Shown here piece after piece: positions 35,423 to 56,550 of a stretch of DNA of 64,000 nt (position 1 is its first letter; every line of letters starts with the position of its first letter). This DNA comes from an uncultured Muribaculaceae bacterium (GTDB lineage: Bacteria > Bacteroidota > Bacteroidia > Bacteroidales > Muribaculaceae), in NCBI GenBank assembly GCA_910578075.1, contig CAJTPK010000002.1, positions 46,479-110,478 of the forward strand, in the 5' to 3' direction. Under the pieces are notes generated by a model. It saw nothing but the letters and a program-made list of their open reading frames with translations. It did no database searches and was not told the origin of the DNA. The translations under genes and the position numbers were made by a program.

Positions 35423-35430
35423 TAACTTTG
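35423..35430 (+). promoter_or_regulatory. Bacteroidetes-type -7 promoter box (TAACTTTG) for the B12 operon
   Basis: The context tttgtaactttgcc sits immediately upstream of the riboswitch. Confidence 0.5.
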
Positions 35431-35436
35431 CCGATG

Positions 35437-35600
35437 AAAGCGGTTGGCCGTTGGCCATTAAAAGGGAACCGGGTGTGAATCCCGGACAGTCCCGCTGCGG
35501 TAAGTCTCTGTAAGACTTCGGCAAACATCTCTTTAAGCCACTGACAATGGTCGGGAAGGCATGCCGGATGTCGAGACAAGTCCGAAGACCTGCCGTTTTC
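35437..35600 (+). promoter_or_regulatory. Cobalamin (B12) riboswitch
   Basis: Conserved core AAAAGGGAACCGGGTGTGAATCCCGGACAGTCCCGC, plus GCCACTG...GGGAAGGC and the B12 box AAGTCCGAAGACCTGCC. It lies upstream of btuB. Confidence 0.85.
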
Positions 35601-35665
35601 GGGGAAGTAGTTCCAAAGGTGCTCTTTCCGGTATGTTGAACACTCTTTCGAGGAAAAGAGAACAT

Positions 35666-40016: not shown

Positions 40017-40059
40017 ATCCGAGTCCGTTTTCGTATCAGATGTAGAAGTTGTGCCAAAC

Positions 40060-40270
40060 ATCACGCAGAGGCGCAGAGGCGCAAAGCCAGGAGTTGGCAA
40101 GTTAGATGATAAGATGATAAAGAGCGCTGAGAATCGCGTGGCGATTTTTGCAAAGGCGCAGTGCTGGTGAGACCGCCTCTGTGTCTCGGCAAGAGTGGTA
40201 ACGACATCTGCGCCGAAAAGAGTGGCATGAAATCTTTGCGCCTCCGTGCCTCTGCGTGATTAAAATTTTA
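40060..40270 (+). repeat. Family B palindromic repeat (solo copy) inside the btuF-btuC gap
   Basis: TIRs atcacgcagagg...cctctgcgtgat plus taaaatttta. It shares gaatcgcgtggcgatt and agtggtaacgac blocks with 34700-35309 and 49439-49641. Family A-like ends flank it (gaagttgt at 40044; aattagtttgaacaacttc at 40290-40308). Confidence 0.8.
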
Positions 40271-40346
40271 CCGACAACAGTAATAAATAATTAGTTTGAA
40301 CAACTTCAATAACTTATTAGGGACGCACTGATGGTGCGTCCGCATT

Positions 40347-42148: not shown

Positions 42149-42157
42149 CTATTAGTG

Positions 42158-43492
42158 ATGAAGTGTTTTACAGGTAAAGCGGGATTTGTCATAGGCGCAG
42201 TATCGTCCGGTAGCGGGAAAACAACCGTCACCAACGGTTTGCTGCGCTCTTTTCGGTCAATGGGACTCAAAGCGGCTCCATTCAAGGTCGGACCCGATTA
42301 TATTGACACACATTTCCATAAGGTCGCTTCCGGTCGTGATTCGATAAATCTTGATGTCTTTATGGGCGGGGAGGATCACGTGAAGGGGTTGTTTGCTGAT
42401 TATTCACGTGGATGTGATGTCTGTGTTGTGGAAGGTGTGATGGGGCTGTTTGATGGTTACGATTGCAGAAAAGGTAGCGCGGCGCATATCGCGGAGATTT
42501 TGGGATTACCAGTGATACTGCTTATCAATGCAGCGTCATCAGCATATTCATTGGCAGCGGTATTGTCGGGTTTTAGGAATTTCAATCCTTCTGTCAATAT
42601 CGCTGGTGTGATCTTCAATAATGTTGCTTCAGATAACCATCTGAGGCTTCTGCGCTATGCTGCCCGTGATTCGGGTGTGGAGTTTTTAGGGTATGTTAAA
42701 CGTGATTCATCATTGATAGTTCCGTCCCGACATCTGGGACTGACTCTTGATGAAGATGATGTAATTGATAGATTTGTTGCAAATGCCGCTGAGGCTGTAT
42801 CTGAGAATGTAGATGTCGCCAGGATATTGGAAGTGACTGGAATTAAATCATCGGAGCACATATCCCGTAGTGTAAAACCTTTGCCTTTTTGCTCTTCCGA
42901 TAAAAAGAAATGCCGGATAGCTGTTGCCCACGATGAAGCATTCAACTTTATTTATCCTGCGAATCTGCATGCACTGGAATCTAATGACGTGCTTGGTATG
43001 GGATACGGTGAGATAGTCCGTTTCTCTCCGTTGCGTGATGAGGAGATGCCCGAAGCGGATCTGCTATATCTCCCGGGAGGGTATCCTGAATTATACAGGG
43101 AGAGGTTGTCTGCTAACAAGGGGATGAGGAAATCTATCAGAGAATTTATAGAGAATGGGGGATACACGATTGCCGAGTGTGGCGGAATGCTGTATCTTGG
43201 TGATGATATCGATGGAATTGAGATGTGTGGGATATTGCCCTTGAGCGGAACGATGGCGGGTGCACGGTTGAAACTCGGATACAGAACCGTCCGTTTTCAG
43301 GGATGCGAGATGCGCGGTCATGAATTTCATTATTCATCTGTGAGGGAGAATGAACCGTTGAGATCTGTCGCTTCGCAGACAGATGTGAGAGGAGAGGCGG
43401 TAGCCACTCCTGTATACAGATATAAAAACACAATCGCTGGATACACCCATCTCTATTGGGCGGAGAGTGACTTTTCAAAACTTTGGGAATGA
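42158..43492 (+). CDS. cbiA: Cobyrinate a,c-diamide synthase
   Basis: N-terminal GAVSSGSGKTTVT. C-terminal GATase region ECGGMLYLG...GHEFHYS. Confidence 0.88.
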   Translation: MKCFTGKAGFVIGAVSSGSGKTTVTNGLLRSFRSMGLKAAPFKVGPDYIDTHFHKVASGRDSINLDVFMGGEDHVKGLFADYSRGCDVCVVEGVMGLFDGYDCRKGSAAHIAEILGLPVILLINAASSAYSLAAVLSGFRNFNPSVNIAGVIFNNVASDNHLRLLRYAARDSGVEFLGYVKRDSSLIVPSRHLGLTLDEDDVIDRFVANAAEAVSENVDVARILEVTGIKSSEHISRSVKPLPFCSSDKKKCRIAVAHDEAFNFIYPANLHALESNDVLGMGYGEIVRFSPLRDEEMPEADLLYLPGGYPELYRERLSANKGMRKSIREFIENGGYTIAECGGMLYLGDDIDGIEMCGILPLSGTMAGARLKLGYRTVRFQGCEMRGHEFHYSSVRENEPLRSVASQTDVRGEAVATPVYRYKNTIAGYTHLYWAESDFSKLWE

Positions 43493-44061
43493 AGATATAT
43501 ACAAAAACCGGAGACCGGGGAACCACCGGTATACGAGGTGGTGAGAGGGTTTCTAAAACTGACCAACGTATCGAGGCTAACGGTACCATTGACGAACTTA
43601 ACAGCATACTTGGCATTGTTAGGGCGATTTCCTGTGATAAGATGACTCAGGAGGTAGTTGCGGAGATACAGACAAATCTCATGATAATCATGAGTCGCGT
43701 TGCAACGCGCTCTGAAAACCGCGCTGACAATCCACGTATCTTACCGGAGAATGCCGTGACTAAGATGGAGGTGGTATTGGATGATATCACATCTGCCGGA
43801 TATGTTACGCAGGATTTCATATTGCCCGGAGGTAATCCGGCAGGTGCGTTTCTGCATCAGGCTCGTTCTGTTTGCCGTAGGGCGGAAAGGGAGCTTTGGA
43901 GGCTTGATGAGCAGGATCCGGTAGAGCAGATGGTGATGTCGTATGTCAATAGGCTTTCAGATCTCCTTTTTGCGATGGCGAGGAGGGAGACATCATTGTC
44001 GGGTGGAACGGATGTAGATTGGGAGCGATTTGGTTCAGGAAAAGGCGTAAGGTCAAAGTAA
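43489..44061 (+). CDS. PduO-type ATP:cob(I)alamin adenosyltransferase
   Basis: MKIYTKTGDRGTTG... is the characteristic N-terminus. ATGA overlap with cbiA. Confidence 0.85.
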   Translation: MKIYTKTGDRGTTGIRGGERVSKTDQRIEANGTIDELNSILGIVRAISCDKMTQEVVAEIQTNLMIIMSRVATRSENRADNPRILPENAVTKMEVVLDDITSAGYVTQDFILPGGNPAGAFLHQARSVCRRAERELWRLDEQDPVEQMVMSYVNRLSDLLFAMARRETSLSGGTDVDWERFGSGKGVRSK

Positions 44062-44066
44062 AGAAT

Positions 44067-45572
44067 ATGAGACGGACTCTAAATATGGAGAGATTGAAAC
44101 CCATAATGCTTGGCGGAACAGGCAGTGATGTCGGCAAGAGTGTGCTTGCCGCCGGATTGTGCCGTATATTTTTGCAAGACGGTTATACTCCGGCACCTTT
44201 CAAGGCTCAGAACATGGCATTGAATTCCTATGTCACGCCAGATGGTCTTGAGATTGGGCGTGCACAGGCAGTGCAGGCGGAGGCTGCCGGAGTGGAGTGT
44301 ATGGCGGAGATGAATCCGGTGCTTCTTAAGCCCTCCGGAAAGATGACCTCGCAGGTTGTTCTGAATGGTCTTCCGGTCGGAAACAAGGATGCATACGACT
44401 ATTTCAGAAAGGAGAATAAGGAACCGCTCCGCAGGGAGGTGCATGCCGCTTTCGATCGTCTTAGCGCAAGATATAATCCTATAGTGATGGAGGGGGCAGG
44501 CAGTATCGCTGAGTTAAATCTTCGGGATTCCGACATTGTCAATATGTCGATGGCCGCATATGCGGATGCCGCGGTGATTCTTGTGGCAGACATTGACAAG
44601 GGCGGGGTTTTTGCTTCGGCTTATGGTTCTATAATGTTGCAGAAAGAGGAGGATCGTAAAAGGATAAAGGGGATCATTGTAAATAAATTCCGTGGAGATG
44701 AGAAGCTTTTCGAACAGGGACGGAAGATGATGGAGAAGATATGCGGTGTCCCGGTGATAGGGGTTGTGCCTTATCTGGATGATATCCATATCGAAGAGGA
44801 GGATTCTGTGTCGCTCGCAAAAAAATCCAACGCTCATACGGAGGAGAACTTGATAAATGTTGCAGTTGTAGCAACTCCACATATATCTAATTTTACGGAC
44901 TTTGATACAATATCGAGGGATCCGAGGGTGCATCTTTATTTTACGTCTGAACCTGCGGAACTGCTGAATGCAGATGTCATAATCCTCCCCGGAAGCAAGA
45001 ACACACTCTCAGACCTTAAGGCTATTCAGACAAACGGCTGTGCGGATGCAATAATAAAGGCTTCCGCGCTGGGTCGCACTGTGATGGGAATTTGCGGAGG
45101 ATATCAGATGATGGGGGAGAGTGTCGACGATCCGGATGGAGTGGAAGGTGAGCCGGATTCGATGGCTGGCTTGGGTCTTTTGCCTGTTAACACGGTGCTG
45201 AAAGGAAGCAAGACTGTCAGACGTGTGAGATTTACAATGGACGGATGCACAGATCTGAACTCCGGATATGAGATACATATGGGAATCTCAACTCTTGAGA
45301 ATGGCGCTTCTCCGATGGTGATCAAGGAGGATGGCTCAGTAGATGGTTGTCGTGTAAGTGAAATGGTATGCGGCAGCTATATTCATGGTATTTTAGATAA
45401 TACCGGTGTGATAGATATGTTGCTTAAACCTCATGCGTTGAGGAAGGGATTGCCCGAGTCGGGTAATGTGGAGCCTTACAGAGAATATAAAGAGAGGCAA
45501 TATGACGCGTTGGCACAAAGATTGCGTGACTGTCTTGATATAGATTTGTTATATAAAATCATGCGGGAATGA
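44067..45572 (+). CDS. cbiP: Cobyric acid synthase
   Basis: IMLGGTGSDVGKSVLAAGLCRIF. C-terminal GATase ICGGYQMMG...IHG. The track start at 44019 is TTG, inside the previous gene. Confidence 0.88.
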   Translation: MRRTLNMERLKPIMLGGTGSDVGKSVLAAGLCRIFLQDGYTPAPFKAQNMALNSYVTPDGLEIGRAQAVQAEAAGVECMAEMNPVLLKPSGKMTSQVVLNGLPVGNKDAYDYFRKENKEPLRREVHAAFDRLSARYNPIVMEGAGSIAELNLRDSDIVNMSMAAYADAAVILVADIDKGGVFASAYGSIMLQKEEDRKRIKGIIVNKFRGDEKLFEQGRKMMEKICGVPVIGVVPYLDDIHIEEEDSVSLAKKSNAHTEENLINVAVVATPHISNFTDFDTISRDPRVHLYFTSEPAELLNADVIILPGSKNTLSDLKAIQTNGCADAIIKASALGRTVMGICGGYQMMGESVDDPDGVEGEPDSMAGLGLLPVNTVLKGSKTVRRVRFTMDGCTDLNSGYEIHMGISTLENGASPMVIKEDGSVDGCRVSEMVCGSYIHGILDNTGVIDMLLKPHALRKGLPESGNVEPYREYKERQYDALAQRLRDCLDIDLLYKIMRE

Positions 45573-46576
45573 TAGAAGGACATGGAGATGACCTGTATCG
45601 CTACGGTGGTAAGGTAAAATATAATTTCAGCACAAATATTGTTTCCGATATGGATCATCGGAAACTCACCGGATATCTATCCACTGTAATGTCTTCGATA
45701 GGAAGCTATCCGGAGCCTGCACCGTTCTCATTGGAGAAAATGATAGCGAAGAAAATTGATGTGGAACCGGAGAATGTGGTGGTTACTAATGGTGCGACAG
45801 ATGCGATGTATCGTATCGCGCATATCAAATCTGGCAAACGCGCAGCTATCCGGATACCTACATTCAGGGAATATCAGGATGCATGCGTGGCATATGGTCA
45901 TGAGATTGCCTTTTTTAATGATATAGATAATGTTCCGGTTGCAGACAGCGTATGGTTATGCAATCCGAACAATCCCACGGGAGAGGTTCTTGATAAGTGT
46001 GAAATATTGCATTTGAGTAATAATAGAGACTCCACTTGGCTAATCGTGGATCAGGCATACGCAGACTATACTCAGCTTCCTGTAATTACGCCTGCGGAGG
46101 CTGTGGAATCCGGTAATGTGATTTTACTCAGTTCGTTGACCAAGAGATTTGCCATTCCGGGATTGCGGATAGGTTATCTGGTAGCTCCTCGGGAGATTGC
46201 GGCTGAAATCAGGTCTGCCGGTATGCCGTGGGCTGTGAATTCGCTTGCCATAGAGGCAGGTAAATATCTGCTGGGTCATGAAGCGGATTATCATATTGAT
46301 GCGGAAACTCTTCATGCTGAGGCATTGCGTATAGCTGAGGAATTCAGGAAATCAGGTATCAACTGCGAACCGACCGATTGCAATTTCATATTGTGCAGAT
46401 TGTCCGGAAGAAAAGCGTCAGATCTTAAAAAATATCTTGTGGAGAATCATGAGATTCTTATACGCGATGCATCCAATTTTGAAGGCTTGGATGAATCGTA
46501 TTTCAGAGTTGCAGCGCAGACTGCAGAACAGAATGACTTACTCATTAAAGCTATTGGGAAATGGATGAGAATATGA
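45569..46576 (+). CDS. cobD: Threonine-phosphate decarboxylase (class I/II aminotransferase fold)
   Basis: 335 aa with N-terminal GHGDD and an SLTKRFAIPGLRIGY Lys region. B12 operon context. Confidence 0.78.
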   Translation: MIEGHGDDLYRYGGKVKYNFSTNIVSDMDHRKLTGYLSTVMSSIGSYPEPAPFSLEKMIAKKIDVEPENVVVTNGATDAMYRIAHIKSGKRAAIRIPTFREYQDACVAYGHEIAFFNDIDNVPVADSVWLCNPNNPTGEVLDKCEILHLSNNRDSTWLIVDQAYADYTQLPVITPAEAVESGNVILLSSLTKRFAIPGLRIGYLVAPREIAAEIRSAGMPWAVNSLAIEAGKYLLGHEADYHIDAETLHAEALRIAEEFRKSGINCEPTDCNFILCRLSGRKASDLKKYLVENHEILIRDASNFEGLDESYFRVAAQTAEQNDLLIKAIGKWMRI

Positions 46577-47514
46577 TCAATTGGCAAGGGTATATGATTG
46601 TGGCGATTCCTTTGCTGGCAGGATGGCTGCTTGACCGAATCATGGGAGATCCTGCATGGTTGCCGCATCCGGTAGTGTTATATGGAAAAATCATATCCTT
46701 TTTTGAACATCAGTTGAATCAGGGTATCGGACGCAAGATGAAGGGAGGGATAATGTCATTTTTGCTTGTGCTGTCGGTTTTCATCATAGTCTGGCTTATA
46801 CTTTTGTTGTTGTCTCCATATTCGGTATTGAAGATTGTAGTGACAGCCATTGGTGTGTTCTATTGTCTCGCGGGAACAACGTTGTCGCGGGAAGTTAGGA
46901 TGGTATTTGACGCATGTGGAAGAGGGATAGAGGCAGCACGTAGACAGATAGCGCGTATTGTCGGTCGTGACACAGGTTCGCTTGACGAACAGGAGATAAA
47001 GACTGCAGCGTTGGAGACTCTTGCCGAGAATCTCAGTGATGGGGTGATTGCGCCTCTTTTTTGGTATCTGGTTTTAGGTTTACCGGGGATGATGGCGTAT
47101 AAGATGGTCAATACGCTCGATTCGATGATAGGTTACAAGAACGAGCGATATAAAGATTTCGGATGCTTTGCAGCCCGTATGGATGATGTGGCGAACTATC
47201 TTCCTGCGCGGCTGACATCATTTCTGATGATTCTATCGAGTGGAAAACTGCGGTTGCTTAAATTTGTGAGACGATACGGGCGATGTCATGCCAGTCCTAA
47301 TTCGGGATATCCGGAGGCGGCTCTCGCCGGCATTCTCGGCTGTCGCTTCGGTGGCACCCACGACTACTTCGGTCAGTCTGTCTACAAACCTTACATCGGT
47401 GAAACTCCGAAAACTCTTACGTCCTCCGACCTCCACATCTCCCTCCGCATCTGTTTCCGCTCCGAACTGCTGATGCTCCTCCTGACCCTCCTTATTATGC
47501 GGTTTTGCGTTTGA
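46573..47514 (+). CDS. cbiB: Adenosylcobinamide-phosphate synthase
   Basis: GDPAWLPHPVVLYGK motif, membrane protein. ATGA overlap with cobD (an alternative ATG is at 46561). Confidence 0.85.
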   Translation: MINWQGYMIVAIPLLAGWLLDRIMGDPAWLPHPVVLYGKIISFFEHQLNQGIGRKMKGGIMSFLLVLSVFIIVWLILLLLSPYSVLKIVVTAIGVFYCLAGTTLSREVRMVFDACGRGIEAARRQIARIVGRDTGSLDEQEIKTAALETLAENLSDGVIAPLFWYLVLGLPGMMAYKMVNTLDSMIGYKNERYKDFGCFAARMDDVANYLPARLTSFLMILSSGKLRLLKFVRRYGRCHASPNSGYPEAALAGILGCRFGGTHDYFGQSVYKPYIGETPKTLTSSDLHISLRICFRSELLMLLLTLLIMRFCV

Positions 47515-48809: not shown

Positions 48810-49358
48810 TTAAGGCAAGGTTATTTCAACAAGACCTCCATAAGGAGGTTGAAAAGAGAATAAGTTTTCGACAGTGGCACGACCGGTCACGAACATGGCG
48901 TTCATTATCACTCCTGCATGTGTGAAAACGAGTACGTTGTCCTGGCCGGAAGCCGACATCTCCTCAAGAAAGGATCTTACACGTTTGTTCTGATCGAGAA
49001 ATGATTCACCGCCTGTAGGTGTGATATGTAGCCAGTCGTCATACCATTGCTGTAGCCTCGGGTCGCGGATGTCATCGTAGCGTTTCATCTCCCACTCTCC
49101 GAAATCCATTTCAAGCAGGCGAGAATCCGATAAGGCATCCGGGTATCCACATGCCTCAGCAAGCAGGCGGCAACGGCTCAAAGGGCTACGGTATATGGCA
49201 TCAAACGCTTTGCCATTTTTTATTATAGCCTCCTCAATTGAAGATTTCACGAGCGCGGCTTCTTCCGGGAATGAGGGTTTCAGGGCGACATCGGTTCTGC
49301 CGTAGCATATTCCCGGCTCCACATCAACCGAGGTGTGGCGAACAAAAGTTATTTTCAT
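48810..49358 (-). CDS. cobC: Alpha-ribazole phosphatase (histidine phosphatase family)
   Basis: MKITFVRHTS carries the RHG-type motif. It lies downstream of cobS. Confidence 0.78.
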   Translation of the reverse strand: MKITFVRHTSVDVEPGICYGRTDVALKPSFPEEAALVKSSIEEAIIKNGKAFDAIYRSPLSRCRLLAEACGYPDALSDSRLLEMDFGEWEMKRYDDIRDPRLQQWYDDWLHITPTGGESFLDQNKRVRSFLEEMSASGQDNVLVFTHAGVIMNAMFVTGRATVENLFSFQPPYGGLVEITLP

Positions 49359-49438
49359 ATATAGATGTTTGTTAAATATGTGCAATCATAATGAAGAAAG
49401 AAATTTGGCCTTGACAATCCCCATTGTATGGTCAAAAC

Positions 49439-49641
49439 ATCACGCAGAGCCGCAAAGGCGCAAAGCCTGGAGTTGACAAGTCCGATGATAAAGATCACGG
49501 AGAATCGCGTGGCGATTTTTGCAAAGTCGCGGAGCAAGTGCCTCGGACTCTGTGTCTCGATAGGAGTGGTAACGACTTCTGCGCCAAATTGAGCGGCATG
49601 AATTCTTTGCGTCTCCGCGTCTCTGCGTGATTAAAATTTTA
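49439..49641 (+). repeat. Family B palindromic repeat (solo copy) between cobS and cobC
   Basis: atcacgcagagccgcaaaggcgcaaagcc ... ctttgcgtctccgcgtctctgcgtgat-taaaatttta. Collinear with 40060-40270. Confidence 0.8.
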
Positions 49642-49658
49642 CGGGACAGAAATAAATT

Positions 49659-50405
49659 TCATGAAAGTTTGAATATTGCTGCGGATGTAAGATAGAAAGC
49701 GAGTTCGCACAACAGCGCTGTTGCCCCGCAACAGTCGCCAGTGTAGCCTCCGATCTTATATCTGAGATAAAGAATCATACCGACAGCTATCAGCATCGGC
49801 AAGCACATGCATGCCCAATATGTGAACGGTAAAAGTAACATCGGCAGGAATCCGGCTGCCACACACATCAGAAATGCTGCGGGAGTCATGCGGTCATATA
49901 TGAGTTTGTTTTTTGCTTCCTCCTGTTTGCGGGCATAGGGGAGAGTATTTATAAGGAAAGATCCGCAGAATTTGCTCCATGGATCTGCCGCAAGCACTAC
50001 CAATGGGGAAAGATGCGACGGAAGGGATGCAACAGACGTTATCATGAGGATGAAATAAACGATAAGTCCAATCACTCCATATGATCCGATGCGGGAATCC
50101 TTCATTATCTCCAAGATGCGGTTACGGTCAGTTCCCCCTCCGAAGCCATCGATGAAATCGGCAAGGCCATCTTCATGCAGTCCACCGGTAAGGATCAGCC
50201 TGACAGCGAATGCAGCCATCACGGCAGTGACAGGGGGGAACACGTGCAGAGCTCCCCATAATGCTAATGCCGTAACGCCACCGGTGATCCATCCTGCCAA
50301 AGGCCATAGATCAACCACACGTTTATATTTGTCGGCCGGTATCTCACATATCTTCCATACCGGAATGCGCGTGAAGAACCCTACTGCCGCAAAAAATTTT
50401 TTCAT
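49659..50405 (-). CDS. cobS: Adenosylcobinamide-GDP ribazoletransferase (cobalamin synthase)
   Basis: FFTRIPV N-terminal motif; 248-aa polytopic membrane protein. Confidence 0.88.
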   Translation of the reverse strand: MKKFFAAVGFFTRIPVWKICEIPADKYKRVVDLWPLAGWITGGVTALALWGALHVFPPVTAVMAAFAVRLILTGGLHEDGLADFIDGFGGGTDRNRILEIMKDSRIGSYGVIGLIVYFILMITSVASLPSHLSPLVVLAADPWSKFCGSFLINTLPYARKQEEAKNKLIYDRMTPAAFLMCVAAGFLPMLLLPFTYWACMCLPMLIAVGMILYLRYKIGGYTGDCCGATALLCELAFYLTSAAIFKLS

Positions 50406-50413
50406 ACAGTTTC

Positions 50414-51451
50414 TTAGAAATATTTGGTGACGCCGACTGACTGGAAATTATCCATTTCGTTGATCATGCGCACAGCGGAGTCGAGGATAGGGTAGGCACA
50501 TACCGCGCCGCTGCCTTCTCCGAGACGGAGATCGAGATGCAGTATTGGGTCAGCGTTCATTGCCTGAAGCATGAGTTTGTGACCGGATTCATCTCCCTGA
50601 TGACCGAAGATAGCATAATCGAGCACTTCAGGATACAGCTTCGAGGCAGCAAGTATGCAGGCGGTCATGATAAAGCCGTCTACAAGGATAATCATGCCGA
50701 GTTCGGCTGCGCGGAGCATACCACCTACCGCCATGACCATCTCGTAACCTCCGAACCATTCAATATAGCTTTCCGGAGAACCGTCACCGTTGTAGTTCTC
50801 CCAGGCGCGTGTAAGCACGTCGAGTTTATGGCTGACCCCAGGTTTGTCGAGACCGGCACCCGCACCGATGCAGTCAGCGAGCGGTATTCCGGTGAACGCG
50901 TGCATCCACATTGATGATGAAGAGGTGTTGCCGCTACCCATCTCACCGAAGCTAACCACATTGCAACCATCGCAAAATACCTTGTCAACAACTCTTGAAC
51001 CTCGCTCGATTGCCGTTTCCATCTCCTCGCGGGTCATAGCCGGTCCATGAAGGAAATTGCGTGTGGATTTGCGGATCTTGCAATCGATGATACCTCTTCC
51101 TGTGGGAATGTCATAGTCCACTCCCGCATCGACAAGAACAAGTTTGAAACCATGCTGGTCGCAGAGGAAATTGATGCCGGCTCCGCCATGTGAGAAATGG
51201 GAGAGCTGTTGCCAAGTTACTTCCTTCGGAGAAACCGTCACACCTTCTTCTATTATGCCATGGTCGGCAGCGAAGAGGATATTGTGAGGCTTGGACAACT
51301 GCGGAGTCAGAGTCTGCTGGATGAGACCGACACGCGTTGCGAGAGTCTCAAGCTTTCCTAAAGAGCCTTTGGGTTTTGTAAGAAAATCGATTTTCTCAAG
51401 AAGGTCTTTCTCAATTTCTTTTGATGGGGAGATTATGTTGAAATGTCTCAT
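50414..51451 (-). CDS. cobT: Nicotinate-nucleotide--dimethylbenzimidazole phosphoribosyltransferase
   Basis: [21 protein letters not shown] and GEGSGA motifs. Confidence 0.9.
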
Positions 51452-51470: not shown

Positions 51471-51986
51471 TTATTTTATTTTTACCGGAATGCCGGCAAC
51501 AGTCAGATATACTTCATCAGCGAGAGAGGCTATAAACTGGTTGAACCAACCTTGAATATCAGTGAAACGTCGTGTCATGGCGTTTGGCGACACACCTCCG
51601 GAACCGATTTCATTCGACACAAAGATGTAGGTGGCGTCATGGGATGTGAATTTTGTGAACTCCTCCTTTAGTTTTGCAAGGGAGGACTGCACATCCTCAT
51701 TATATTTGAAGAAGACATTGGTCACCCACATTGTGACGCAGTCTATCAATACAGTCTTTCCTGTCATGTCGTGCCGTCCGAGTTCGATCTCCTCCTCGAC
51801 TGTGGTCCAGTCCGGTCCGCGGCGATTCTGATGTATGCGTACCCTTTCGCGGAATTCATCATCCATCACGTGCGCGGTGGCAAGGTATACCGGTGTGGCG
51901 GAATGTTTGAGCGCGAGTGATTCCGAAAACTCGCTTTTGCCTGACCGTTGTCCTCCGGTCACCAATATGATATTTTTATCGCTCAT
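51471..51986 (-). CDS. cobU: Bifunctional adenosylcobinamide kinase/adenosylcobinamide-phosphate guanylyltransferase
   Basis: P-loop VTGGQRSGKSEFSE; 171 aa. Confidence 0.9.
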   Translation of the reverse strand: MSDKNIILVTGGQRSGKSEFSESLALKHSATPVYLATAHVMDDEFRERVRIHQNRRGPDWTTVEEEIELGRHDMTGKTVLIDCVTMWVTNVFFKYNEDVQSSLAKLKEEFTKFTSHDATYIFVSNEIGSGGVSPNAMTRRFTDIQGWFNQFIASLADEVYLTVAGIPVKIK

Positions 51987-52960
51987 AGTTTGTATATATC
52001 TGAAATGGATGCCAGGGAACCATTCCTGACACTTTTCTCGGAAAAACGCTTTAGATTATCACCATCGATCCCTTGACGGAAATATACGAAGGGGGAGTTG
52101 CCGGAAGAGTGACATCCACTCTCGCATAGCGACGGATGATCTGACATCACGGCTATGGCTAAGTCTGATTCCGTTGTAGTGACAATTTCCAAAAGAGGAG
52201 AGATGATATGTTTGTCAATACTTTCGATTGAGTTGATTTTCCCGTTCACGTCCCGCGCATGCGAGGCGAAATCGCAAGCTTCTACATGGACAATGACCAG
52301 ATCGTAGTCATCAAGCGCACGGACTGCCGCTTCCCCTTTCCCTTTGAAATCAGTATGGATTGTGCCAGTGGCATGTTCGGGTTTGATCCAATCCGCACCA
52401 ATCTCAATTGCAATACCATGCAGAAGTGGAACAGCTCCGATTATAACAGTTTTCAGCGGAGTGCCGTCCTCTGTATGATGAATGGAGGTGAGAGGCGGAT
52501 ATGTGCGGTAGGAATCCCCGCTCCAAAAAGCAATATCCGATAGTTTAGCTAAAGTTGCGACATCATTAGATGGAGCAATACATATCCCTTTTGTGGCGGC
52601 AATAGGGATGAATGTGCAATCCTTGAATCGGGATCTTAATTCCTTAATGTTAAAATCTCCCGCATCGGTCAGATAGCGCATTGCCGTGTATCCTTCCGGA
52701 ATAGGTATGCCAAGACCAGATGCCTCCAGCGGCCCTCTGCCTGCCGGAAGTGAGGAGGGTTCGTATCCGAGAATGGTGAGAATCGCGACTTCGCTGCCGG
52801 GATAGAACCCGTCAGGCACGGTCTGCAAAGAACCGCATCTCCCTATTCGGGCAAGCTTATCCAATGCCGGAGTATGCGCATATTCGAGCGGAGTCTTGCC
52901 ACCTAATGAGGATACAGGCTCGTCAGCCATACCATCGCATATTACAATTACCCTTTTCAT
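51983..52960 (-). CDS. ApgM-like (cofactor-independent phosphoglycerate mutase/metalloenzyme superfamily) protein; function in the B12 context unknown
   Basis: MKRVIVICDGMADEPVSSLGGKTPLEYAHTPALDKLA...GSEVAILTILGY...GRGPLEA is the typical ApgM-family N-terminus. 4-nt overlap with cobU. Confidence 0.75.
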   Translation of the reverse strand: MKRVIVICDGMADEPVSSLGGKTPLEYAHTPALDKLARIGRCGSLQTVPDGFYPGSEVAILTILGYEPSSLPAGRGPLEASGLGIPIPEGYTAMRYLTDAGDFNIKELRSRFKDCTFIPIAATKGICIAPSNDVATLAKLSDIAFWSGDSYRTYPPLTSIHHTEDGTPLKTVIIGAVPLLHGIAIEIGADWIKPEHATGTIHTDFKGKGEAAVRALDDYDLVIVHVEACDFASHARDVNGKINSIESIDKHIISPLLEIVTTTESDLAIAVMSDHPSLCESGCHSSGNSPFVYFRQGIDGDNLKRFSEKSVRNGSLASISDIYKL

Positions 52961-53001
52961 TCCCTATATGTGGAGTATTAAAACCTAATAACTCGTCACT
53001 A

Positions 53002-53823
53002 TTACTTAATACATGATTTGAGGATTTCCAGTGCCTCATCGCGACCGGCATTGACAAGATCAGGATGATGTGCATCGGAGTTTACAACGATGGGAACATC
53101 AGCATCGTGAAGTTTCTGCCACCATTTCAGAGCAGGGAAGAAGCGGTTCTTGTCAGCAAGTGATTTAGTATTTACCTCAACGATCACACCTGCTGATTTC
53201 GCATGGGAGATTATGTCATCAATATAGGCTTCATACCATGGCTGATTTTCGATTTCAGGATCGGCAATCGCCGCATTACCAGCAATCTTATCGAAGTGAC
53301 CCAATATCTCGAAACCTCCATGCTCAAGCATCATGAGTACTTGTTCGAAATATTTTTCTGCGACATAACGGAGATCACCGTTATATCCGTCTTTGAGGAA
53401 TCTGGCAAAACGTTCGAACTTTCCGTCACAGTCAAGCCATACACCATCTTGGTTAGGGACGAAATGCACTGATGCAAGGCGATAGTCGAGAGGTAAATTC
53501 TGGAAATAATCAATGTGTGGACCGAAATCGGGACTCATATAATCGATTTCCAGGGAGGTTAGAACCGCCATCTTGCCATCGTATAGCTCTTTTAGTTTGG
53601 AAGCTTCCGCAAGATATTCGTCCATATCCTCCTTTATCATATTGCAGGGTTCCGGTTGATTGAGCGGAGAATGGGGTGATATGCCCCAGATTTCAAAACC
53701 TGCCTCATGAGCGGCATTCGCCATAACATCAATCGGTGCCCGGCCATCACAGAATTGCGAATGTGAATGGAAATTGTATCTGTCTGTATTTTTAATGAGA
53801 TTTAGAATATCAAAAGTATTCAT
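53002..53823 (-). CDS. PHP-family histidinol-phosphatase-like phosphoesterase
   Basis: NFHSHSQFCDG metal-binding start and a C-terminal NSDAHHP. I chose the ATG at 53823, which abuts the cstA stop. Confidence 0.72.
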   Translation of the reverse strand: MNTFDILNLIKNTDRYNFHSHSQFCDGRAPIDVMANAAHEAGFEIWGISPHSPLNQPEPCNMIKEDMDEYLAEASKLKELYDGKMAVLTSLEIDYMSPDFGPHIDYFQNLPLDYRLASVHFVPNQDGVWLDCDGKFERFARFLKDGYNGDLRYVAEKYFEQVLMMLEHGGFEILGHFDKIAGNAAIADPEIENQPWYEAYIDDIISHAKSAGVIVEVNTKSLADKNRFFPALKWWQKLHDADVPIVVNSDAHHPDLVNAGRDEALEILKSCIK

Positions 53824-53824
53824 G

Positions 53825-55300
53825 TCAGGATAATTGATTTGATGCAATAGTATCTGTGGAATAAGTAAGCCTGAGGAAGCGGGCAAACAATGCGAGCAGC
53901 AGGGCGGATGTGCCTATTCCGATAGCCAAAGCCCATTCATATGCTATGCTGATACCCCATAGTTTATCGGTCAATGCTCCGAATCCTTCAGGAGCGAAGA
54001 ATATATATGTCACGGTTACCGCTGTCATAAACAGAGCGGGAATGAGCGTTATGACATATAACTTTCTCTCTTTGGCAAGGTAGACGGTTAGCGCCCATAG
54101 TGTGAACACCGCGAGCACCTGGTTGCACCATGCGAAGTATCGCCACAGTGCCTCGTAAGGAAGAAGCATGATGATGAAACATATCGCGAATATCGGGAGT
54201 GATATCAGTAATCGCTTCACAATCTTACGTTGCTTCACGCCCATAAAGTCTGCTGCAATGAGCCGGGCAGAGCGAAGGGCTGTATCTCCTGATGTGATAG
54301 GGGCGGCTATTACGCCAAGAACAGCGAGGATGCCACCGGCTGTGCCAAGCCATGTTTTCGAAACATCATTAACGAGGATTGCCGGGCTGCCATTGCCCAG
54401 AAAACTCTGTAATCCGTCGTAACCTCCGGTGAAAGCAATTGCCGCTGCTGCCCATATCAGAGCCACAATACCTTCAGTCACCATCGCTCCGTAGAACACC
54501 GGCCGCGCATGACGCTCGTTTTTCAGACAGCGTGCCATCATGGGGGATTGGGTGGCATGGAAACCGGAGATTGCTCCGCATGCTATCGATACGAACATCA
54601 TCGGAAAAATCGGACTCGCCTCCGGATCCGCCTTGTGGTTATAAAAATTATCCCATATCTCGGGCATTGCGGAGGAGTGTGCATGTAATGCCACAAGAAT
54701 TCCCACCGCCATGAAAAGCAGCGCAAATCCGAAGACCGGGTATAATTTGCCGATCAGTTTGTCGATAGGCAGGAGAGTGGCGAGCATGTAATATGCGAAT
54801 ATGACCACAATCCAGAACAGACGGTCGAAACTTTCGGGAGTCAGCATTGCAAGCAGGTCGGCTGGGTTATAGACAAACACCGCTCCAACTAAAATCATCA
54901 GAAGCAGGGAGAACACGCGCATCGTGTTTTTTATGCCATTGCCAAGCTGGTTGCCCACAATCTCGGGCAGAGAGGCTCCGTTGCTGCGCAACGACAACAT
55001 TCCTGAAAGATAATCGTGGACAGCCCCTGCGAAAATTGTTCCGAAAACTATCCATAGAAAAGCTGCCGGTCCGAACATCACGCCCATTATAGCTCCGAAG
55101 ATCGGCCCGAGTCCGGCTATGTTGAGAAACTGGATGAGAAAAACTTTCCAGGTAGGTAGCTCTACAAAATCAACACCGTCGGCATGCTGTTTCACCGGGG
55201 TCGGGCGCGAAGGATCCTGTCCGAAAACTTTGGATACAAACGCTCCGTAAGTAAAGTATCCTGCAATCAGGATGATGAGTGCGAGTGTGAAGGAAAACAC
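53825..55300 (-). CDS. cstA: Carbon starvation protein A (CstA-family peptide/pyruvate transporter)
   Basis: 491 aa, polytopic, with a CstA-like N-terminus and conserved GPIFGAI-type segment. Confidence 0.85.
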   Translation of the reverse strand: MFSFTLALIILIAGYFTYGAFVSKVFGQDPSRPTPVKQHADGVDFVELPTWKVFLIQFLNIAGLGPIFGAIMGVMFGPAAFLWIVFGTIFAGAVHDYLSGMLSLRSNGASLPEIVGNQLGNGIKNTMRVFSLLLMILVGAVFVYNPADLLAMLTPESFDRLFWIVVIFAYYMLATLLPIDKLIGKLYPVFGFALLFMAVGILVALHAHSSAMPEIWDNFYNHKADPEASPIFPMMFVSIACGAISGFHATQSPMMARCLKNERHARPVFYGAMVTEGIVALIWAAAAIAFTGGYDGLQSFLGNGSPAILVNDVSKTWLGTAGGILAVLGVIAAPITSGDTALRSARLIAADFMGVKQRKIVKRLLISLPIFAICFIIMLLPYEALWRYFAWCNQVLAVFTLWALTVYLAKERKLYVITLIPALFMTAVTVTYIFFAPEGFGALTDKLWGISIAYEWALAIGIGTSALLLALFARFLRLTYSTDTIASNQLS

Positions 55301-55335: not shown

Positions 55336-56550
55336 TCAATGTCCTGTCTCGGCGCGGTAGACTTCGCTGCGCAGACGTCTCAGAGCTTCCCGGTCTTTTT
55401 CCACTTCAGTCTCGAGAGAGCGGATCTGGGGGCGAAGTGAAGAGCCTTTGTTTATTGCGAATTTACGACGCATTTCCGATAACTTCTCCTCTTTTTGCAG
55501 GAATGCCTTGCGTGCCGCGATATATTTTTTCATCATCGCGCGTCCGGATGAAGTCTGGAAATCGTCAAGTGTGGTATAATTCACTCCTCCTTTCATCGGA
55601 AAAATGAAATCCACCTGTTTTTTTGCAGGAGCCGGAGTGATGGAATGTATCTCTTCAAGTAAGTCGGTATAATCATTTTCACCCCAAGTCGATTTGTAAT
55701 CGCGAATGAAAGCGAGATCAGGAATGTTGTCGGTATCTTCCGCGCTGTAGTTTTTACGGAGATCATTTACCTTAAAAAGATATACAGTGAGATTATCCCC
55801 GAGCTGGTTGCGGTCGGTAGCCCACCAGCCGACACCGTTCAACTCATCGATTGCAAGCAGATAGTCATCGTAAGGGGAGTTGTACGGCATGCCGATATTC
55901 TGCGGCTGGAGGTATTCCCCGTCAGCGGCGTCACGCGTGGCGACAAAGATGTCATATCCACCGAGAGATTCCTCGTTGTCGGATGCGAAATATAATGTCA
56001 CGCCGTCCGACATCATGAATGGGTAAATGGCATTACCTCCGTTGTTAAGTATATCCGGAGTCTCTGTCGGTTCATGCCATGTCCCGTCAGTGAGTCTTAT
56101 TGACTCCACTATGCGGTATATTCCGGTGGAGTCCGGTTGCGCCCACATCTTGAAATCATTCCCCTCGTTTGTGAAGACATAGTCTGCATCCGGAGTTTCA
56201 AACGGGATGTCTGCTGCCGTACCAAGGTTTCCTGCTGAGAATGGAAGGCGATACGCCTTGAAAAAATCCGTTTTGGGCACAGAGATGCTGTCCAGGATGA
56301 CAAGCTGCTCCACACGTTCCAGGAAATTCTCGGCATTCATCAACTCGCGTTCCTGTTCCTCAAGCTGAGGCGGGATATTTTTTTTAGCTTTTTTGCGCGC
56401 TGCCGCATACTGTTTCGCAGCGTTCTCGAAATCATAATTGAGGAAAGATGCCCGCCCCTCGGCAAGCATTTCATCAACAGTCTGCGCACCTGCGTAATTC
56501 ACGCCTGTGGCACATATGATTGAGGCTAATATAAGTCTGGAATATCTCAT
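55336..56550 (-). CDS. Secreted hypothetical protein with a TPR-like N-terminus, PD40/TolB-like beta-propeller repeats and a C-terminal coiled coil
   Basis: Signal peptide. MSDGVTLYFASDNEESLGGYDIFVA is PD40-like. Confidence 0.5.
   Translation of the reverse strand: MRYSRLILASIICATGVNYAGAQTVDEMLAEGRASFLNYDFENAAKQYAAARKKAKKNIPPQLEEQERELMNAENFLERVEQLVILDSISVPKTDFFKAYRLPFSAGNLGTAADIPFETPDADYVFTNEGNDFKMWAQPDSTGIYRIVESIRLTDGTWHEPTETPDILNNGGNAIYPFMMSDGVTLYFASDNEESLGGYDIFVATRDAADGEYLQPQNIGMPYNSPYDDYLLAIDELNGVGWWATDRNQLGDNLTVYLFKVNDLRKNYSAEDTDNIPDLAFIRDYKSTWGENDYTDLLEEIHSITPAPAKKQVDFIFPMKGGVNYTTLDDFQTSSGRAMMKKYIAARKAFLQKEEKLSEMRRKFAINKGSSLRPQIRSLETEVEKDREALRRLRSEVYRAETGH

What the first reader, a model, noticed from the sequence alone, without database searches (positions are those of the whole stretch)
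51983..53823. ApgM-like metalloenzyme (plus PHP phosphatase) fused into the cobUTSC nucleotide-loop operon: candidate missing L-threonine kinase
Seen in sequence: a 325-aa protein with the archaeal-type iPGM (ApgM) N-terminal signature overlaps cobU by 4 nt. A PHP-family phosphoesterase lies 41 nt upstream of it. Established knowledge: CobD, encoded at 45569, needs L-threonine-O-3-phosphate, which PduX or BluE kinases make in other bacteria. Neither kinase type is visible in this window. As far as I recall, an ApgM-family protein in Bacteroides was genetically assigned as a non-canonical homoserine kinase, i.e. it phosphorylates a hydroxy-amino acid. Inference: this paralogue could be the L-Thr kinase supplying the aminopropanol-phosphate linker. 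The PHP enzyme's role (histidinol-P, or a cobamide phosphate intermediate) is open.
Basis: inference. Interest (0 to 1): 0.6.

Follow-up and report, generated by a model that had tools for sequence, protein, structure and literature searches.

The report
Shortened HomK-like enzyme in B12 operon
A cut-down relative of the phosphoglycerate-mutase-like enzyme that replaces homoserine kinase is translationally coupled to the vitamin B12 nucleotide-loop genes of a mouse-gut Muribaculaceae bacterium; it is a good but untested candidate for the missing enzyme that makes threonine phosphate, whereas the neighbouring PHP phosphatase is an unrelated housekeeping gene.

Summary
A 325-aa ApgM-family gene (51983-52960, minus strand) overlaps cobU by 4 nt, and a PHP gene ends 41 nt upstream.

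The protein is not a phosphoglycerate mutase. It keeps the catalytic Ser56 and all metal ligands. It also has the Glu (E227) that marks HomK, the validated alternative to homoserine kinase; true mutases have Lys there. About 70 residues of its cap domain are missing.

It belongs to a Muribaculaceae-specific clade. In all 13 contexts examined that clade sits in the cobUTSC operon, and 10 of them also show cbiP-cobD-cbiB nearby. A second, independently reduced clade with a Thr nucleophile sits beside cbiP-cobD-cbiB or heads the corrin-ring operon in related genomes. Full-length relatives lie next to thrA/thrC and were never found next to cob genes.

The genome has no PduX/BluE-type kinase, no ThrB and no threonine synthase, so threonine synthesis is excluded. 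The best reading (about 50%) is an L-threonine O-3-phosphate-forming phosphotransferase.

Two points count against it. Seven cbiB-positive relatives have no such gene, and the pruned cap could instead suit a bulky substrate such as cobinamide.

The PHP gene occurs in 252 of 301 family genomes, paired with cstA whether or not cob genes are present, so it is not part of the system.

The idea itself was already floated for archaeal homologues (GapMind 2026 preprint). This scan also noted it earlier for Actinobacteria, on other DNA.

The parts
51983..52960 (-). Short HomK-like (ApgM-family, Glu-type) metallo-phosphotransferase, 325 aa; candidate L-threonine O-3-phosphate-forming enzyme
   Evidence: Family matches. 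Residues D9, S56, E227, D230, H234, D274, H275 and H284 are conserved. The cap domain is shortened. AF2 model pLDDT 94.7, best fold match 2zkt with TMq 0.80. Clade and context.
51471..51986 (-). cobU (adenosylcobinamide kinase / guanylyltransferase); start overlaps the stop of the HomK-like gene by 4 nt
   Evidence: PF02283 E 1.9e-54; NF004469 171.5 bits, above the cut-off of 161
50414..51451 (-). cobT (lower-ligand phosphoribosyltransferase)
   Evidence: TIGR03160 391.5 bits, above the cut-off
49659..50405 (-). cobS (cobamide synthase)
   Evidence: PF02654 E 2.3e-54; TIGR00317 above the cut-off
48810..49385 (-). cobC (alpha-ribazole phosphatase)
   Evidence: TIGR03162 168.3 bits, above the cut-off of 162.9
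45569..46576 (+). cobD (L-threonine-O-3-phosphate decarboxylase), the consumer of the proposed product
   Evidence: Best NCBIfam hit TIGR01140, E 2.4e-74, 250.4 bits, below the cut-off of 290.55
46561..47514 (+). cbiB (adenosylcobinamide-phosphate synthase)
   Evidence: TIGR00380 239.9 bits, above the cut-off
42155..45572 (+). cbiA, pduO-type adenosyltransferase and cbiP (late corrin amidation and adenosylation)
35424..35611 (+). Cobalamin riboswitch heading the btuB...cbiB operon. It is the only one in the window; none precedes the minus-strand operon.
   Evidence: RF00174 104.5 bits
53002..53823 (-). PHP/HisJ-family phosphoesterase: a neighbour, not part of the cobamide system
   Evidence: Present in 252 of 301 family genomes regardless of cbiB. 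The cstA-PHP pair is conserved where the cob genes are elsewhere or not found. The genome has no hisD.
53825..55300 (-). cstA-family transporter, the conserved partner of the PHP gene (neighbour)
   Evidence: PF02554 E 1e-61

Best explanation
The gene encodes a structurally reduced member of the HomK branch of the ApgM / alkaline-phosphatase superfamily. I propose it has been recruited to cobamide biosynthesis to make L-threonine O-3-phosphate, the substrate of CobD.

Inferred mechanism, by homology: a two-metal centre (D9/S56/D274/H275 and D230/H234/H284) activates Ser56. Ser56 is phosphorylated by a phospho-donor of unknown identity, probably not ATP, and passes the phosphate to the beta-hydroxyl of L-threonine. 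Glu227 holds the substrate's alpha-amino group. CobD then decarboxylates the product to aminopropanol phosphate, and CbiB attaches that to adenosylcobyric acid.

Shown here: family membership, catalytic residues, fold, gene context and phyletic pattern. Inferred only: substrate, donor and direction of the reaction.
For: (1) All catalytic and metal residues are kept. So is the Glu that distinguishes HomK (E299 of BT2402) from true mutases; PDB 2zkt and 3kd8 have Lys there (preprint 10.1101/2024.10.14.618325, read).

(2) Context: 13 of 13 members of the short clade examined lie in the cobUTSC operon (window; G110). Twelve are directly upstream of cobU and one is after cobC. Convergent cbiP-cobD-cbiB is visible in 10 of them.

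(3) A second reduced clade (Thr nucleophile, 347-359 aa) sits directly upstream of cbiP-cobD-cbiB in two genomes. In four genomes it follows btuFCD directly and heads the corrin-ring genes; in the three whose contigs extend far enough, these run on to cbiA-pduO-cbiP-cobD-cbiB. In one genome it is divergent from cobU.

(4) Tree: the short, Thr-type and long HomK forms are three separately supported clades with SH-aLRT support of 99, 96 and 99. Both cob-linked clades share G82, D204 and S233, where HomK has S/N, N and G.

(5) Phyletic pattern in 301 family genomes: the reduced forms occur only in cbiB-positive genomes, 9 of 44. The single exception is a fragment on a 444-bp contig.

(6) Of 62 loci of at least 9 kb holding close long-form relatives across phyla, 35 have thrA/hom or thrC nearby and none has cob genes.

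(7) The genome has no PduX/BluE-type GHMP kinase. It also has no ThrB, no full-length HomK and no threonine synthase, so the gene cannot serve threonine synthesis.

(8) Every other phosphoryl-transfer step of the late pathway already has its gene here: cobU and cobC.
Against: No biochemical or genetic data exist for any cob-linked HomK-like protein. Seven cbiB/cobD-positive family genomes have no match to the ApgM-like protein P0121, and five of them also have no match to the ApgM-specific domain PF10143. None has a GHMP kinase near its cob genes. Some other source of threonine phosphate must therefore exist in this family, and it could also exist here. Another 28 cbiB-positive genomes have only the thr-linked long HomK.

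In the short clade the gene is coupled to cobU, not cobD. The loss of most of the cap domain should open the active site, which fits a bulky substrate or a phosphatase better than a small amino acid. cobU and cbiB co-occur almost perfectly in this family (46 and 44 of 301 genomes), so phyletic profiles cannot separate a CobD-linked role from a CobU-linked one. No B12 riboswitch precedes the gene here or in four relatives' loci.
Confidence: 0.5

Rival explanations
1. It phosphorylates a different hydroxyl of the same pathway. One option is the aminopropanol 2-OH of adenosylcobinamide, that is, a CobU-independent cobinamide phosphotransferase for salvage. The other is free (R)-1-amino-2-propanol.
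For: The chemistry is the same secondary alcohol as in threonine. The gene is translationally coupled to cobU in 12 of 13 contexts. Removal of about 70 cap residues would open the site for a corrinoid-sized substrate. The genome is a salvager: it has btuBFCD behind a riboswitch and no CbiC.
Against: CobU is full length, so a cobinamide kinase is already encoded. The amide nitrogen of cobinamide carries no charge for the conserved Glu227 to bind. The Thr-type sister clade keeps its cap and sits with cbiP-cobD-cbiB or the ring genes, not with cobU. With cobD present, the route through threonine phosphate is the expected one.
Confidence: 0.2
2. It is a phosphatase or mutase acting on a phosphorylated cobamide intermediate, such as cobamide 5'-phosphate, alpha-ribazole phosphate or threonine phosphate. 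It would then be a back-up or regulator of CobC.
For: The alkaline-phosphatase-superfamily core with a Ser nucleophile can hydrolyse phosphoesters. A reduced cap favours access of water. It lies in the same operon as cobC.
Against: CobC is present in every cluster examined. Hydrolysing a pathway intermediate inside a biosynthetic operon would be wasteful. The Thr-type clade heads operons that contain no nucleotide-loop genes.
Confidence: 0.12
3. It is simply a homoserine phosphotransferase (HomK) or a glycolytic phosphoglycerate mutase that happens to lie next to cobU.
For: The best profile matches are apgM and hyp_Hser_kinase. The Glu of HomK is kept.
Against: Both scores are far below the curated cut-offs. 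There is no threonine synthase in this genome or in G110, G206, G247, G259 and G271. Lys is replaced by Glu, which excludes a mutase by the published criterion. The only other weak hit in the genome is a 507-aa open frame on contig C24, a length consistent with a classical iPGM, but I did not identify it further. The cob context is conserved at 37-91% identity, whereas the long forms sit next to thrC.
Confidence: 0.05

Closest known systems
HomK / ThrB2 / TIGR02535 homoserine phosphotransferase (BT2402 of Bacteroides thetaiotaomicron; DET_RS08350 of Dehalococcoides mccartyi)
   Same: Same superfamily and fold. Same catalytic Ser56, the same metal ligands, and the same specificity Glu (E299 in BT2402, E227 here). 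About 35-39% identity to long forms from Bacteroidales.
   Different: About 75 residues shorter: most of the cap domain is deleted, including the conserved CNL, GHI, YRHLL and PPHD motifs. It scores 249 bits against a cut-off of 446. It lies in a cob operon, not a thr operon, in a genome without threonine synthase. Clade-specific changes are G82, D204, S233 and Y96.
Two HomK homologues of Bathycorpusculaceae (FWH37_03765, G4O51_00460) next to cobD, which the GapMind 2026 preprint (10.1101/2024.10.14.618325, Appendix 3) speculates form L-threonine O-3-phosphate
   Same: Glu-type ApgM/HomK homologue encoded beside cobamide linker genes, with the same proposed product.
   Different: Those are archaeal and adjacent to cobD, and they are described as resembling the mutase model. 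No cap deletion or Thr nucleophile is reported for them. I could not fetch them to compare.
PduX (Salmonella) and BluE (Rhodobacter) L-threonine kinases
   Same: They would supply the same metabolite to CobD (PMC6249242).
   Different: They are unrelated ATP-dependent GHMP kinases with no sequence or mechanistic similarity. None is present in this genome.
Archaeal-type cofactor-independent phosphoglycerate mutase ApgM (PDB 2zkt, 3kd8; TIGR00306)
   Same: Closest solved fold (TMq 0.80, E 1.2e-28) and shared metal site.
   Different: Glu instead of the substrate-binding Lys, a truncated cap, and a score below the cut-off (264.6 against 320).

Membership tests
ApgM cofactor-independent phosphoglycerate mutase (TIGR00306) | Score at or above the curated cut-off (320 bits) | tested here: not met
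   264.6 bits, matched in two pieces
ApgM cofactor-independent phosphoglycerate mutase (TIGR00306) | Lys at the position equivalent to BT2402 E299 (the HFKPTD motif of 2zkt) | tested here: not met
   Glu227 here; Lys in 2zkt and 3kd8
ApgM / alkaline-phosphatase superfamily core | Ser/Thr nucleophile plus two-metal ligand set (D, D-x3-H, D-H, H) | tested here: met
   D9, S56, D230, H234, D274, H275 and H284 are invariant across the clade; fold match to 2zkt
HomK / TIGR02535 homoserine phosphotransferase | Specificity Glu (E299 of BT2402) | tested here: met
   E227 aligns with E299 of P0059, whose D9, S56, E299, D346 and H347 match the published BT2402 numbering
HomK / TIGR02535 homoserine phosphotransferase | Score at or above the curated cut-off (446.3 bits) with a full-length cap domain | tested here: not met
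   249 bits; about 117 residues of the HomK cap (97-213) are replaced by about 48
HomK / TIGR02535 homoserine phosphotransferase | Functions with threonine synthase; usually encoded near hom/thrA/thrC | tested here: not met
   No thrC in the genome. The context is cobUTSC. Long forms sit next to thrC or thrA.
L-threonine kinase (functional class: PduX, BluE) | Forms L-threonine O-3-phosphate from L-threonine | not testable with these tools
   Needs an enzyme assay or complementation
L-threonine kinase (functional class: PduX, BluE) | GHMP kinase fold | tested here: not met
   Different superfamily. This would be a functional analogue, not a member.
HisJ-family histidinol phosphatase (the PHP gene, TIGR01856) | Score above the cut-off, and a histidine pathway to serve | tested here: inconclusive
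   94.6 bits against a cut-off of 90.2, but no hisD in the genome. Family membership is met; the histidinol-phosphatase role is doubtful.

The most novel reading that the evidence does not exclude
Gut Muribaculaceae that lost threonine biosynthesis converted their HomK into dedicated L-threonine phosphotransferases for B12 synthesis. This happened twice: once by pruning the cap domain while keeping the Ser nucleophile, and once by swapping Ser for Thr and losing the C-terminus. The enzymes would be ATP-independent and would work through a phosphoenzyme intermediate. That would be a third, mechanistically new solution to the 'missing PduX' step, which is unassigned in most cobamide producers.
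Probability: 0.4. Interest if true: 0.7.

Novelty: new variant of a known kind. Interest (0 to 1): 0.55.

Why it matters
The source of L-threonine phosphate is the least well assigned step of cobamide biosynthesis. pduX annotations are absent from most experimentally verified producers (Shelton et al., PMC6461909). A phosphoglycerate-mutase-like enzyme doing this job would fill a gap in pathway prediction for gut Bacteroidales. It would also add a phosphotransferase that may not use ATP to a pathway thought to use ATP kinases.

The case would also illustrate enzyme recruitment. An amino-acid pathway enzyme appears to have been kept and reshaped, twice, after its original pathway was lost. In practice it gives two compact, well-modelled proteins that can be tested directly in a Salmonella pduX background.

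Tried and rejected
PHP gene as part of the system: rejected. It is present in 252 of 301 genomes, paired with cstA, and lies on other contigs than cob in G206 and G247; the pair is also present in G292, which has no cbiB.

Histidinol-phosphatase role for the PHP gene in this organism: doubtful, because the genome has no hisD.

B12 riboswitch control of the gene: none found upstream here or in L009, L010, L076 and L077. The only hit was in L047, before a PepSY_TM-cobU operon.

PduX displacement pattern: the cbiB-positive genomes without an ApgM-like gene have no GHMP kinase near their cob genes either, so no clean either/or pattern emerged.

A conserved unknown gene in those clusters: none found by all-against-all comparison of flanking ORFs.

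Separating a cobD-linked from a cobU-linked role by phyletic profile: not possible, because cobU and cbiB co-occur almost perfectly in this family.

Cob-linked relatives in other phyla: the genome-contig scan returned 80 loci. Apart from one further Muribaculaceae short form (L080), none had convincing cob genes, including the Thermoleophilia, Actinomycetota and Methanocellales entries. The earlier scan notes on Actinobacteria could therefore not be re-examined here.

Complex prediction: not used, because no protein-protein binding is claimed.
Full report
**Observation.** The minus strand of the window carries, in order:
- a PD40/OmpA-like gene (55336-56550)
- cstA (53825-55300)
- a PHP/HisJ-family gene (53002-53823)
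- a 325-aa ApgM-family gene (51983-52960)
- cobU, cobT and cobS
- a 273-bp gap
- cobC
- an NhaC-like transporter gene

The ApgM-like stop overlaps the cobU start in the sequence ATGA, and the PHP gene ends 41 nt upstream. On the plus strand a cobalamin riboswitch (35424-35611) heads btuB, btuFCD, cbiA, a pduO-type adenosyltransferase, cbiP, cobD and cbiB.

The genome is a 3.24-Mb, 95%-complete assembly.

**What the protein is.** It matches the apgM and 'proposed homoserine kinase' models far below their cut-offs and in two pieces, because the middle of the protein is missing.

Aligned with full-length relatives, it keeps D9, the nucleophile S56, and the metal ligands D230, H234, D274, H275 and H284. 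About 117 residues of the cap domain are replaced by about 48.

The GapMind 2026 preprint (10.1101/2024.10.14.618325) shows by complementation that BT2402 and related proteins (HomK) substitute for homoserine kinase. It names one specificity residue: Glu299 in HomK, Lys in true cofactor-independent mutases.
- The window protein has Glu227 at that position. P0059, whose numbering reproduces D9, S56, E299, D346 and H347 of BT2402, aligns E299 to it.
- The solved mutases 2zkt and 3kd8 have Lys there.

So this is a truncated HomK-type enzyme, not a phosphoglycerate mutase. An AlphaFold2 model built on 62 sequences is confident (pLDDT 94.7). Its best solved match is 2zkt (TMq 0.80).

**Relatives and context.** Sequence searches find about 40 clusters of 300-341-aa proteins, all from gut metagenomes or Muribaculaceae MAGs, and then a jump to proteins of about 400 aa.

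In all 13 contexts I examined for the short forms, at 37-91% identity, the gene lies in the cobU-cobT-cobS-cobC unit (the window; G110).
- It is directly upstream of cobU in 12 contexts, often overlapping it, and after cobC in one (L079).
- cbiP-cobD-cbiB is convergent and visible in 10 contexts.
- The PD40-cstA-PHP block is upstream in only some of them.

In a sample of 301 family genomes the 325-aa type occurs in the window's genome and in one congener, G110.

That search also uncovered a second group of 347-359-aa ApgM-like genes in seven other genomes. All seven lie in or beside cob or btu gene clusters, and all seven genomes have cbiB:
- directly upstream of cbiP-cobD-cbiB in G107 and G059
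- directly after btuFCD, heading the corrin-ring genes, in G206, G247, G271 and G259; in the first three these run on to cbiA-pduO-cbiP-cobD-cbiB, while the G259 contig ends within the ring genes
- divergent from cobU in G009

These proteins keep the Glu and all metal ligands. They have Thr in place of the Ser nucleophile, retain most of the cap, and lack the last 35 or so residues. About 58 clusters of this type exist, again only from Muribaculaceae-like sources.

A maximum-likelihood tree separates the short, Thr-type and long forms into three supported clades, with SH-aLRT support of 99, 96 and 99. The two cob-linked clades share G82, D204 and S233, where HomK has S/N, N and G. This could reflect common descent or a common change of function.

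**Contrast with the long forms.** In G282, G171, G086 and G209 the roughly 400-aa form lies next to threonine synthase. In G156 and G041 a 366-369-aa form lies next to thrA. Of 62 loci of at least 9 kb around close long-form relatives from many phyla, 35 contain thrA/hom or thrC and none contains cob genes.

**Phyletic pattern.** cbiB is present in 44 of the 301 genomes.
- Nine carry a cob-embedded reduced form, and none of these has a full-length HomK.
- Twenty-eight carry only an unlinked or thr-linked form.
- Seven have no match to the query protein at all. Five of these were also searched with the ApgM-specific domain PF10143 and had no match.

Among cbiB-negative genomes the only reduced form is a fragment on a 444-bp contig. 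These genomes are related to one another, so the counts are descriptive rather than statistical.

**Excluding other roles.** The genome's only GHMP kinases are galactokinase, an HddA-like heptose kinase and IspE. It therefore has no PduX/BluE homologue and no ThrB.

It also has no threonine synthase. Neither do G110, G206, G247, G259 and G271, the carriers in the same genus. The gene therefore cannot serve threonine synthesis.

There is no CbiC. The organism salvages late corrinoids and completes them with cbiA, cbiP, cobD, cbiB and cobUTSC, which still requires threonine phosphate. CobD is 335 aa, with no fused kinase domain.

**The PHP gene.** It is a single-copy gene in 252 of 301 family genomes and always follows cstA. 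This holds in G206 and G247, whose cob clusters lie on other contigs, and in G292, which has no cbiB. Its position beside the cob genes is specific to this lineage. Because the genome has no hisD, a histidinol-phosphatase role is doubtful, and its function stays open.

**Interpretation.** Involvement of the short HomK-like protein in cobamide synthesis is well supported. The only phosphoryl-transfer step without a gene in this genome is L-Thr to L-Thr-P. The retained Glu also suggests an amino-bearing substrate. I therefore favour an L-threonine phosphotransferase, at about 50%.

The main reservations are:
- the absence of any experiment
- seven cbiB-positive relatives with no candidate at all
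- the tight coupling to cobU rather than cobD in the short clade
- the pruned cap, which would suit a bulkier acceptor such as adenosylcobinamide, whose secondary alcohol is the same one, or hydrolysis

cobU and cbiB co-occur almost perfectly in this family, so phyletic profiles cannot settle that point.

**Novelty.** The idea that a HomK homologue next to cobD makes threonine phosphate is stated as a speculation for two Bathycorpusculaceae proteins in the GapMind 2026 preprint. Earlier notes of this scan report shortened HomK-like genes in B12 operons of Thermoleophilia and of a soil actinobacterium. I could not re-test those. No other paper in the held library links this family to cobD.

What is new here:
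- the bacterial, gut-specific occurrence
- the two independent structural reductions
- the link with loss of the threonine pathway

This makes it a new variant of a known kind, still awaiting a first assay.

Noticed in passing
window 49386-49658: The 273-bp cobS-cobC gap is filled by a copy of a dispersed repeat of about 240 bp. It is 81% identical to 40056-40288 in the btuF-btuC gap and gives about 80 BLAST hits across the genome's contigs. Relatives have cobS and cobC abutting.
   Followed up: partly
L044-L050 (e.g. L047:16250-17311, minus strand): A second cob-embedded HomK-like clade in related Muribaculaceae has Thr instead of the Ser nucleophile and lacks the C-terminal 35 or so residues. 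It heads corrin-ring or cbiP-cobD-cbiB operons.
   Followed up: yes
L051:8688-9620 (G282): A 310-aa ApgM-like paralogue has degenerate active-site residues (G, P, D, D, M, D, H, R at the eight key positions). It lies between gyrB and a UDP-galactopyranose mutase gene and looks like a pseudoenzyme.
   Followed up: no
whole genome G000: No threonine synthase, no hisD and no CbiC were found in the 95%-complete assembly. This predicts threonine and histidine auxotrophy and corrinoid salvage rather than de novo ring synthesis.
   Followed up: partly
window 53002-55300; L071-L074: cstA followed by a PHP/HisJ-family gene is a conserved pair across Muribaculaceae, including genomes predicted to be histidine auxotrophs. 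The substrate of this PHP enzyme is unknown.
   Followed up: partly
L056-L062 (G235, G098, G214, G115, G136, G194, G139): Seven cbiB/cobD-positive Muribaculaceae genomes have neither an ApgM-like gene nor a PduX-like GHMP kinase near cob. Their source of threonine phosphate is unexplained.
   Followed up: partly
L075:11762-13633: A glycoside hydrolase family 2 gene is inserted between cobT and cobS in one relative's operon.
   Followed up: no
window 45569-46576: CobD scores 250.4 bits against TIGR01140, below the curated cut-off of 290.55, although that model is clearly its best hit and the gene is operonic with cbiB.
   Followed up: no
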